Below, piece after piece: positions 25,806-28,797 of a stretch of 64,000 nt of DNA. Below the pieces are notes generated by a model. That model was not told the DNA's origin. It did not search any database and saw only the letters and a list, made by a program, of their open reading frames with translations. Where the stretch lies: assembly GCF_009914755.1 (NCBI RefSeq), contig NC_060945.1; one strand, 5' to 3'. Both the position numbers and the translations under genes were made by a program. The DNA comes from the human T2T-CHM13v2.0 reference genome, Homo sapiens. Positions within the stretch are counted from its first letter, which is position 1, and every line of letters begins with the position of its first letter.

Positions 25806-26009
25806 GTAAGTACATGCGCCTGTTTGAGATGTTTGCCTGTACACCCGTTCATGAATGCTCTGTGAGGTCTTCTCTGGCTATAAGGCCCCATTGTTTTAAA
25901 GACAGCAACTTACAATAACTTAAAATGTCTGTTTTGCCTGGACCCACCATGGAAAGAATTGAATTAACGTGAAGTGTGTTGCAGTGAGTTCTGTGATGTA
26001 TAAATTGCT
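25806..26009 (+). repeat. Left arm of ~205-bp inverted repeat
   Basis: Reverse complement of 28592-28797; core 25886-25968 has 2 mismatches in 83 bp. Confidence 0.95.
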
Positions 26010-26949
26010 GAGAACAAAGCAAAGCAAGGGCGAGGGGCATCTGTGACTACACTGCAGAAACGGGAGAGGGGCCAGGGCCGTCTTCAGAGGTGGCTGTGCC
26101 GTGACGGTGTCTGCAGGCAACAGTGTTGTCGCAGATGGCCATGGGTGATCTGACTATGCTCTCAGCCGCTGGGCCTGCCTGGGCCCCTGTCCTTTCCTCA
26201 GCTGGCTCTCCAGCTTTTCCTCAATCCCATGACTGTTGGTTATTCAAGGGAGGCTGGTTTCTGTCGTTTCAAAACAGGAATCCAGGCCCACGTCCCTCAC
26301 CAGGGAGGATTCCCTGACTGCTCACCTGACAGGTGCTGCTGACTGGTGCACAGGGCTGGCACCCCCAACTGTACACTGGGCAGGTACCTCTGGCTGTAGG
26401 TAGGGATGGTGCCCCCCCACTGTACACTAGGCAGGTACCTCCGGCTGTAGGTAGGGATGGTGGCCCTCACTAGTACCCCAGGCCAGTTCCCATGACTATG
26501 CAGGAGGCTGGGACCCCTGACTGTACACTCAGATGGGACCCCTGACTCTACCCCGGGGACGGAAACCCTGACCGTATGCCAGACAGGTACCCTCTGACTG
26601 TAAACTAGGATGGGATCCCTGACTGTACTCCAGGCAGGTACCTCTGTTAACTGACAAATGATGAGGTTCATGAATTTCAGAAGGAGAGTTTTATTTCTCA
26701 TAGAGTTGCAGCCTGCGCAGTGGCCATTATGACAGGCTGGGAAGTGTAGCCTCCAGCCAGAAGCCACAAACAGGCACCTCAAGGGAGGAGCAAAGGGAAG
26801 AGGAATTTATGCTGGTGGCGTGGCTAAATATATATATTCAATTAGCTCTAGGAAAGCCATGAATATTTATTTATACAAGGAGAAACACATGCAACTGAGC
26901 TTCAGGCCTCTCCATGGGGAGCATGTTAAAAAAAAAATGGCAGCATTAA

Positions 26950-27540
26950 GCTGGGCACGGTGGCTCACGTCTGTAATTCCAGCACTTTGGGAGGTCGAGA
27001 CAGGCAGATCACCTGAGGTCAGGAGTTCAAGACCAGACTGGCCAACATGGCAAAACCCTGTCTCTACTAAAAATACAAAAATTAGCTGGGCATGGTGGTG
27101 GCCATCTGTAATTACAGCTACTTGGGAGGCTGAGGCAGGAGAATTGCTTGAACCTAGGAGGCAGAGGTTATAGTGAGCCAAGATTGCACCATTGCACTCC
27201 AGCCTGGGTGACAACAAGAAAGAAAAACAGGCCGGGCGCAGTGGCTCACACCTGTAATCCCAGCACTTTGGGAGGCCAAGGCGGGCAGATCACGAGGTCA
27301 GGAGTTCAAGACCAGCCTGGCCAACATGGCAAAACCCGTCTCTGCTAAAAATACAAAAATTAGCTGGATGTGGTGGCACGTGCCTGTAATCCCAGCTACT
27401 CAGGAGGCTAAGAGAGGAGAATCACTTGAACCAGGGAGTTGGAGGTTGCAGTGAGATGAGATCACACCACTGCACTCCAGCCTGGTAACAGAGCAAGACT
27501 CCATCTCAAACAAAAAAAGAAAGAAAAGAAAAACAAAAAA
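26950..27540 (+). mobile_element. Two head-to-tail Alus (26950-27229, 27230-27540) within one outer TSD AAAAAATGGCAGCATTA
   Basis: The second Alu sits in the A tail of the first (AAGAAAAACA on both sides). Confidence 0.93.
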
Positions 27541-27601
27541 ATGGCAGCATTAGCACCATCCAAGGGTGGAGTGTTTGGCCCTCTGACATCAAAAGGTGAA
27601 G

Positions 27602-27682
27602 CTGAGGGCACGAACCCTCACTGGGCATCTGAGGGCACGAACCCTCACTGGGCATCTGAGGGCATGAACCCTCACTGGGCAT
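27602..27682 (+). repeat. 27-bp tandem triplication
   Basis: CTGAGGGCA(C/T)GAACCCTCACTGGGCAT x3. Confidence 0.95.
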
Positions 27683-28591
27683 CCCCTGTAGACCATCTAG
27701 ATCCACTCCACGGCCTCTCGTCGGGCAGGAATGCTGGTCGGTTGCTTGTTGAAAGCACACAAGGGAGGGGCGGAGTCCAGCGGTGGGTGGATATCAGAGA
27801 GGAGTCTGTTGAAAAGGCTGGTTTCTGTTTAGCCCTGAGGAAAGAAACAAGGGAAGTTAACGAGGGAGGAGGCATAACAAGTTATGTCCAACCTCCCATC
27901 CCATCAGGGCCAGGAACTCGGTTTCCCTGGAGTTCCTCTGGGCTGAGAGGAAGACATCTGTTCAGTCAGTTGGTGGACTTAGTAGTTCATCTTTCTCACC
28001 CGTGACTGTACACCCGGCACATACCCCCGACCATATACCAGGCAGGCATCTCTGACTGTACTCCCGGCAGGTACCCCTGACCTAACATGTGACTGGTACA
28101 TGAGCTGGTACCCTGGCTGGCACACATTCTTTGTAGGTCCAGTCTTACTGACATGCTGAAACAATTAGCTGTGCTTTTATTTCTAGGTTTCAGACCCATC
28201 GTAAGGCCATGGTCAATTTCTCTTACTCCCCAAGGGACACAGTCAAGAGAGATTGTTGTCACATAGGGGCCTTCTTTCAATGAATATGTTTGCATCTGAA
28301 AGAGGTAACCCACGATTGCCTGCCAGAAATGAGGGAAACAGACCGTGTCCTGAACTGCTTCCCACATACAAATCACCGCTTGTTTCCCAGGACATCTCAG
28401 TGCCAACAACTCCCTCGCAGCACATGACTCCCCCGGCATCTTCCGAAGGCTTGCATTTTCTCCACGAGCCATTACCTCTTGAAAAACTTTCACAAAGAAG
28501 ACGTAAGGGCTTAAGTGGCGTGGAAAGTGGGTTTCACACAATGAGTCTATTTGAAAAGATCTTCAGGGGCTTCCAAATCCCTCTCTCCGGG

Positions 28592-28797
28592 AGCAGTTTA
28601 TACTTCACACCGCTCATGGCAACACTGTCTTTAGGTTAATTCAATTCTTTCCATGGTGGGTCCAGGCAAAACAAACATTTTAAGTTATTATAAGTTGCTG
28701 TCTTTAAAACAATGGGGACTTATACCCAGACAGGACCTCACGGAGAATTCTTGAGCGCGTATACAGACAAAAATCTCAAACTGGTGTATGTACTTAC
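28592..28797 (-). repeat. Right arm of ~205-bp inverted repeat
   Basis: Reverse complement of 25806-26009. Confidence 0.95.

What the first reader, a model, noticed from the sequence alone, without database searches (positions are those of the whole stretch)
25806..28797. ~205-bp inverted repeat with a homogenised core, flanking 2.6 kb and covering two putative splice donors
25806-26009 is the reverse complement of 28592-28797 and is not a repeat family I recognise. By hand alignment the outer 80 bp have 15 mismatches, the central 83 bp only 2, and the inner ~41 bp are diverged with a 2-bp gap. An old duplication with a near-identical core suggests gene conversion or recombination between arms, the usual substrate of recurrent inversions. 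An inversion would flip putative exon B. The left arm starts at the exon A donor and the right arm spans the exon B donor, so RNA pairing would mask both. Alternatively, the exon A donor may be a by-product of the duplication.
Basis: partly seen in the sequence, partly recalled or inferred. Interest (0 to 1): 0.72.

Follow-up and report, generated by a model that had tools for sequence, protein, structure and literature searches.

The report
Old inverted duplication, patchily homogenised
A 205-base stretch of human chromosome 21 has one reversed copy 2.6 kb away, and its middle is far more alike than its edges; this is likely an old local duplication later partly overwritten by gene conversion, an ordinary kind of genome scar with no listed inversion or gene.

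Summary
The near-identical core is unusual: permutation p=0.005, and 1 of 271 control repeat pairs shows as much. The arms were found nowhere else in T2T-CHM13, while the same search returned hundreds of candidates for the LTR between them, so they are not two insertions of a family. Flank divergence (21%) is close to the LTR's (18%); the core's is about a tenth of that. New detail: a 9-bp direct repeat brackets the unit and forms a fold-back at the left junction. Best reading: a primate-age template-switch inverted duplication plus one later conversion tract, with no function. No inversion is listed here in three catalogues, and 86% identity with a 39-bp longest perfect run is a poor recombination substrate. 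Splice masking is unsupported: no annotated exon, and about one donor-like site is expected per arm length. No ape orthologues were available, so conversion and past inversion stay inferred.

The parts
25806..26009 (+). Left arm of the inverted duplication (homology may start at 25803 or 25792)
28592..28797 (-). Right arm (homology may extend to 28800 or 28811)
25886..25968 (+). Homogenised core, left copy: 81 of 83 identical, perfect runs of 27, 15 and 39 bp; inferred conversion tract
28635..28717 (-). Homogenised core, right copy
25790..25798 (+). 9-bp direct repeat, left copy; with a 4-nt loop and the arm start it forms a 22-bp fold-back (25790-25811)
   Evidence: chance 97 of 16077 per comparison, four comparisons made
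28792..28800 (+). 9-bp direct repeat, right copy; its first 6 bases lie inside the right arm
26300..26644 (+). Degenerate ~25-bp minisatellite, left part; no other copy found in the genome
27997..28120 (+). Same minisatellite, right part, same orientation, split from the left part by the LTR
26645..27996. High-copy solo LTR-like repeat (TG...CA ends, imperfect 4-bp flanks) inserted into the minisatellite; without it the spacer is 1230 bp. Family not named by any search
26949..27552 (+). Two head-to-tail Alu copies inside the LTR, flanked by a direct repeat

Best explanation
A single-copy 205-bp segment has one inverted copy 2.6 kb away, likely made by a replication template switch in an early primate, and its central 83 bp were likely overwritten much later by one gene-conversion tract between the arms, leaving a scar that is probably neutral. 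Shown: the two arms, their lack of other detectable copies in the genome, the identity profile, the 9-bp direct repeat and fold-back at the left junction, and the LTR and Alus in the spacer. Inferred: the duplication is about as old as the LTR (corrected divergence 0.24 against 0.20) and arose when the spacer may have been as short as 1.2 kb; conversion came at roughly a tenth of that age (range 0.01-0.37). Which arm is the source and which way conversion ran cannot be told from one genome.
For: Core excess: 17 differences expected in 83 bp at the flank rate, 2 seen; permutation p=0.005; 1 of 271 control pairs. Only two copies found genome-wide: 2 candidates, and 2 matches for a 30-nt core pattern with <=3 mismatches. 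Positive control: 469 and 425 candidates when the query held the LTR. Small inverted duplications are the commonest non-MEI inversion class in 1,019 humans (277 events, median 284 bp, mostly 1-15 bp microhomology, read as replicative; PMC12350158 passages). One genome showed 21 opposite-strand local duplications (PMC5829575 passages). Conversion is raised within 10 kb (PMC8230782, PMC6598467 passages), occurs mainly above 80% identity, and has tracts of 50 to several hundred bp (PMC3924818 passages).
Against: No orthologous sequence was available, so concerted change was not tested. 4 of 271 control pairs reach the same likelihood ratio, and the finding was picked by eye from many windows. The arms are about as short as the ~200-bp minimal efficient segment, and at ~80% identity conversion is strongly reduced. 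The core is CpG-free and 36% GC, which lowers its mutation rate somewhat. Flank differences are transversion-rich (14 of 25; p=0.04 against the LTR-calibrated rate), which this model does not explain. The junction repeat has about a 2% chance of arising across the four comparisons made.
Confidence: 0.6

Rival explanations
1. The core is the conversion tract of a crossover between the arms, so the spacer was inverted at least once in primate history (fixed, or toggling between species).
For: A crossover would leave the same pairwise pattern; one genome cannot tell it from a non-crossover (inference). Inversion with adjacent conversion is described between inverted LINEs (PMC5829575 passages). 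Repeats of 140-300 bp flank some polymorphic inversions (PMC13629690 Table S1 part 1).
Against: No row here among the 9 chr21 rows of a T2T-based human callset (PMC10150506 Table S1), among 612 IR-flanked candidates (that set is filtered), or in the 1,576 human-chimpanzee list (draft assembly, coordinates converted by estimate). Identity is 86%, below the >90% of studied NAHR inversions. Macaque tables could not be read, and the ape T2T list covers only events >10 kb.
Confidence: 0.13
2. No conversion: the core is a chance low-mutation patch in an old duplication.
For: 4 of 271 control pairs reach the same likelihood ratio and 1 of 271 the same window; the core has no CpG; the locus was chosen post hoc.
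Against: Binomial probability 1e-6 for a fixed window, p=0.005 after scanning. The one control pair that matches is itself an inverted Alu pair 11 kb apart and may be a conversion.
Confidence: 0.1
3. Selection keeps the core alike, either as a duplicated regulatory element or as a long RNA helix in an unannotated transcript that could mask splice sites.
For: The arms would pair strongly if transcribed (-286 kcal/mol on +, -274 on -). Both core differences would be G-U pairs on the minus strand, the strand of LINC01671 (from; a coin-toss result). A RefSeq enhancer lies 0.7 kb away (24176-25097). An acceptor-like site sits at the inner end of the left arm on the minus strand (26008).
Against: It needs about 88% constraint in both copies. 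No annotated exon or element lies on either arm. No Rfam match reaches a gathering score (best on the arms E=0.13). Flank changes are mostly transversions, which break pairs. An ordinary 206-nt inverted Alu pair from the window is more stable (-372), and one search lists many inverted Alu pairs within 5 kb. 0 of 9 open frames tested match Pfam.
Confidence: 0.07
4. The unit 25799-28791 is a relic non-autonomous Mutator-like DNA transposon: long terminal inverted repeats with a 9-bp target duplication.
For: A 9-bp exact direct repeat brackets the unit. MULEs have long TIRs and 8-11 bp TSDs (PMC6446971 passages).
Against: No other copy of the arms or non-LTR interior was found. The ends are not flush: the left end has 13 extra bases, and the right direct repeat lies inside the inverted homology. 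No transposase remnant in the frames tested. The outer ends are the diverged part, and the core would still need conversion.
Confidence: 0.06
5. The arms are two independent insertions of an interspersed repeat.
For: The genome search warns that no match does not prove rarity, and no repeat library was available.
Against: Independent copies 79-81% alike in their flanks imply a family that the search finds easily, as it did for the LTR at 76-84%. nhmmer found no arm match at E<=1 in 174 kb of other human DNA.
Confidence: 0.02

Closest known systems
Small non-tandem inverted duplications in humans (PMC12350158; PMC5829575)
   Same: Size (205 bp against a median of 284 bp), local placement, opposite strand, short homology at a junction.
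   Different: Those are young and polymorphic; this one is about 21% diverged in its flanks and carries a secondary homogenised tract.
Non-allelic gene conversion between neighbouring repeats (Aleshin and Zhi 2010, seen only as cited in PMC8230782 and PMC6598467)
   Same: Copies under 10 kb apart, about 80% identical, short tract of near identity.
   Different: The substrate is a two-copy sequence, not an Alu, so donor and acceptor are unambiguous once orthologues are aligned.
IR-mediated recurrent polymorphic inversions (InvFEST class; PMC6748972, PMC13629690)
   Same: Inverted repeats flanking a kilobase-scale segment.
   Different: Arms are 86% identical rather than >90%, with a 39-bp longest perfect run; no inverted allele is listed in the tables searched.
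Mutator-like elements (PMC6446971)
   Same: Long inverted ends bracketed by a 9-bp direct repeat.
   Different: No other copy found, ends not flush with the direct repeat, no transposase.

Membership tests
Local inverted duplication | Two copies only, opposite strand, within a few kb | tested here: met
Local inverted duplication | Short microhomology or templated bases at a junction | tested here: inconclusive
   9-bp direct repeat and fold-back at the left junction; 97 of 16077 per comparison, four comparisons; fold-back stem >=6 bp in 3.6% of random 30-mers
Local inverted duplication | Outgroup with the single-copy ancestral allele | not testable with these tools
   no relatives of this genome are held
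Non-allelic gene conversion tract | Contiguous tract of excess identity between paralogues | tested here: met
Non-allelic gene conversion tract | Paralogues cluster by species within the tract | not testable with these tools
   no primate orthologues available
IR-mediated recurrent inversion | Inverted repeats more than 90% identical | tested here: not met
   86% overall; criterion from PMC6748972 and PMC13629690 methods
IR-mediated recurrent inversion | Both orientations seen in humans or apes | tested here: inconclusive
   absent from three published lists; no haplotypes examined directly; macaque tables unreadable
Mutator-like element | Long terminal inverted repeats | tested here: met
   205-bp arms; criterion
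Mutator-like element | 8-11 bp target duplication immediately outside the TIRs | tested here: not met
   9-bp repeat present, but 13 extra bases on the left and overlap with the arm on the right
Mutator-like element | Dispersed family of copies or transposase remnant | tested here: not met
Interspersed repeat (two independent insertions) | Many genomic copies at similar pairwise identity | tested here: not met
   2 candidates against 469 and 425 for the LTR control; no Dfam library available
Splice-regulating long-range RNA duplex | A transcript that spans both arms and uses the masked sites | not testable with these tools
   none in the RefSeq annotation supplied; no RNA data available

The most novel reading that the evidence does not exclude
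A 205-bp, 80%-identical two-copy inverted repeat drove a real crossover that flipped the 2.6-kb spacer in the ape or monkey lineage, and the homogenised core is the fossil breakpoint: an uncatalogued primate micro-inversion made well below the usual identity and length thresholds, beside an enhancer upstream of LINC01671.
Probability: 0.12. Interest if true: 0.45.

Novelty: new member of a known kind. Interest (0 to 1): 0.2.

Why it matters
If the best reading holds it matters little biologically. It is a clean two-copy example of conversion between short, diverged inverted copies that ape alignments could date, and it shows that fixed old duplications keep junction signatures. It would matter more only if the spacer is flipped in some primate or human haplotype, because inversion catalogues filter for repeats above 90% identity and would tend to miss it.

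Tried and rejected
Rfam scan of 23000-32000: only Alu-derived matches and two chance-level matches on the arms (E=0.13 and 1). A sequence-only model was built from the two arms, but no genome-wide profile search was possible, so very old relatives of the arms are not excluded. nhmmer of 14 segments against 174 kb of other human DNA: three hits at E 0.5-0.9, none on the arms; a larger background sample was not available, so the genome-wide frequency of such unique inverted repeats was not measured. No extension of homology into inner or outer flanks, and no similarity between left and right outer flanks (shuffle p 0.075-0.8). No target duplication of 6 bp or more around either single arm. Open frames: 9 of the 20 listed were scanned, those outside the Alus and LTR mainly, with no Pfam match. 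Literature: LINC01671 (29 papers, listing only) and a neighbour-gene search (25 of 47 listed) showed nothing on this repeat. The supplement of PMC12350158 is cut in storage and showed no inversion list; its only chr21 41.0-Mb row is an insertion at 41,018,183. PMC5398296 (methods and one results section) caps spacers at 1 kb, so it cannot hold this locus. PMC4417113 (passages) describes U-turns in organelles and is only an analogy. By eye some flanks resemble old MLT1, L2 and MER5 fragments (recalled names, no call supports them), so I did not use them to orient the spacer.

Full report
Observation. A free local alignment returns 25806-26009 against the reverse complement of 28592-28797, with 177 of 206 columns identical and a whole-genome E-value of 8e-61. 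Differences fall 15 in the outer 80 columns, 2 in the central 83, and 10 substitutions plus a 2-base gap in the inner 43. At the flank rate (25 of 121) 17 differences are expected in the core. Allowing for the free choice of segment, p=0.005 in 3000 permutations. As an empirical control I took repeat-copy pairs of matched divergence from the DNA held: 1 of 271 had an 83-column window with <=2 differences and 4 of 271 reached the same likelihood ratio. These pairs share copies, so this is a guide, not a probability.

Copy number. DNA searches of T2T-CHM13 with the left arm, with each arm plus 1.7 kb of non-LTR context and with the core gave two candidates each, the two arms. A 30-nt core pattern with up to 3 mismatches gave 2 matches and 0 for the reversed control. 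The same tool gave 469 and 425 candidates when the query held the LTR in the spacer, down to about 68% identity. Independent insertions 79-81% alike would belong to a family of that detectability, so the arms are a local duplicate. The tool warns that no match does not prove rarity, and no repeat library was at hand, so the duplicated piece could still be a fragment of a very old repeat; nhmmer found no arm match in 174 kb of other human DNA.

Anatomy. The spacer is 2582 bp. It holds a degenerate ~25-bp minisatellite (26300-26644 and 27997-28120, same orientation) split by a high-copy LTR-like repeat at 26645-27996, which itself carries two Alus. Without these the spacer is 1230 bp. The LTR differs from 18 genomic copies by 18% on average (corrected 0.20), the arm flanks by 21% (corrected 0.24), the core by 2.4% (0.024; ratio 0.10, range 0.01-0.37). 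With recalled primate rates of 1-2 per billion site-years this puts the duplication in early primates and the core in apes or later, with wide limits. On the left it makes a 22-bp fold-back with the arm start. A match of 9 or more occurs in 97 of 16077 random window pairs 3 kb apart; I made four such comparisons, so it is suggestive only. Just outside the stated ends 8 of 14 bases still match, and TTG against TCA fits one decayed CpG (inference), so the duplication probably does not start at the donor GT.

Mechanism. Step 1 (inferred): a replication template switch copied about 205-220 bp onto the opposite strand 1.2-2.6 kb away. Small inverted duplications are the commonest non-MEI inversion class in 1,019 humans, median 284 bp, mostly with 1-15 bp microhomology (PMC12350158, passages); one genome showed 21 opposite-strand local duplications (PMC5829575, passages and section 22). 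A staggered-break inversion would give the same layout (inference) and is not excluded. Step 2 (shown for nesting order only): LTR into the minisatellite, Alus into the LTR. Step 3 (inferred): one conversion tract of at least 83 bp between the arms. Conversion is raised within 10 kb (PMC8230782, PMC6598467, passages), happens mainly above 80% identity and has tracts of 50 to several hundred bp, but falls sharply near 80% identity and below about 200 bp of homology (PMC3924818, passages). So it is plausible as a rare event, which is what one tract in tens of millions of years requires. Unexplained: 14 of 25 flank substitutions are transversions (p=0.04 against the LTR-calibrated rate).

Inversion. 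A crossover in the core would look the same in one genome, so a past flip is not excluded. I found no listed inversion. PMC10150506 Table S1 (T2T coordinates; 41 genomes by its abstract) has 9 chr21 rows, none at 41.008-41.011 Mb. PMC13629690 (abstract, results part 1, methods section 13, Table S1 part 1 and a search of the tables) has no chr21 row starting 4259-4263; the hg38 place, about 42.62 Mb, is estimated from the offset, and that set is filtered for >90% repeats or prior calls. PMC1270012 (abstract and supplement search) has no chr21 row at 42.90-42.92 Mb, my estimate of the hg17 place. Macaque tables could not be read, the ape T2T list covers events over 10 kb (PMC12058530, passages), and the 1,019-genome supplement is cut; these unseen tables could bear on the claim. 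NAHR inversions studied in PMC6748972 use repeats over 90% identical (passages); here identity is 86% and the longest perfect run 39 bp.

Splicing and RNA. The annotation supplied with the finding shows no exon or functional element on either arm; LINC01671 starts about 5 kb to the left on the minus strand. Sites matching 7 of 9 letters of the recalled donor consensus occur at 4.8 per kb over both strands, about 1.0 per arm length, and the duplication doubles any such site. The arms would pair if transcribed (-286 or -274 kcal/mol), less stably than a 206-nt inverted Alu pair from the same window (-372). Rfam shows nothing on the arms beyond chance, and 0 of 9 frames tested match Pfam. Holding the core by selection needs about 88% constraint in both copies.

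Comparison and verdict. It works like a small local inverted duplication with later non-allelic conversion, and it meets the tests I could run for that class; the species-tree test could not be run. It fails the identity criterion for recurrent IR-mediated inversions. It resembles a Mutator-like element (long inverted ends, 9-bp direct repeat; PMC6446971 passages) but fails on flush ends and copy number. I found no description of this repeat in the searches (listings only). It is a new member of a known kind, of low interest (0.2), with a 12% chance of an uncatalogued primate micro-inversion.

Noticed in passing
window 38362-38654 and 49749-50041: An inverted Alu pair 11 kb apart shares a near-identical stretch (<=2 differences in 83 columns) within 84% overall identity; the only such pair among 271 controls, and a second possible conversion tract in this window.
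   Followed up: partly
window 27602-27683: Three 27-bp tandem copies, 98% alike, inside the old LTR: a recent local triplication.
   Followed up: no
window 26008-25914, minus strand: An acceptor-like site at the inner end of the left arm with donor-like sites at 25947 and 25913 would frame a 60- or 94-nt exon on the LINC01671 strand; no transcript evidence.
   Followed up: partly
window 34899-36426: A 1.5-kb GATA array; a 190-bp insertion with population differentiation is listed at chr21:41,018,183 (window 36183) in PMC12350158.
   Followed up: no
window 40940-42438: A 114-bp-period VNTR of about 9 copies with decayed flanks.
   Followed up: no
window 13454-14942: Nested inverted LTR-like and Alu fragments, 74-76% alike, related to the repeat at 30910 onward.
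   Followed up: no
window 23100-24300: GC-rich stretch (60-65%) abutting the RefSeq enhancer at 24176-25097, 1.5 kb from the left arm.
   Followed up: no
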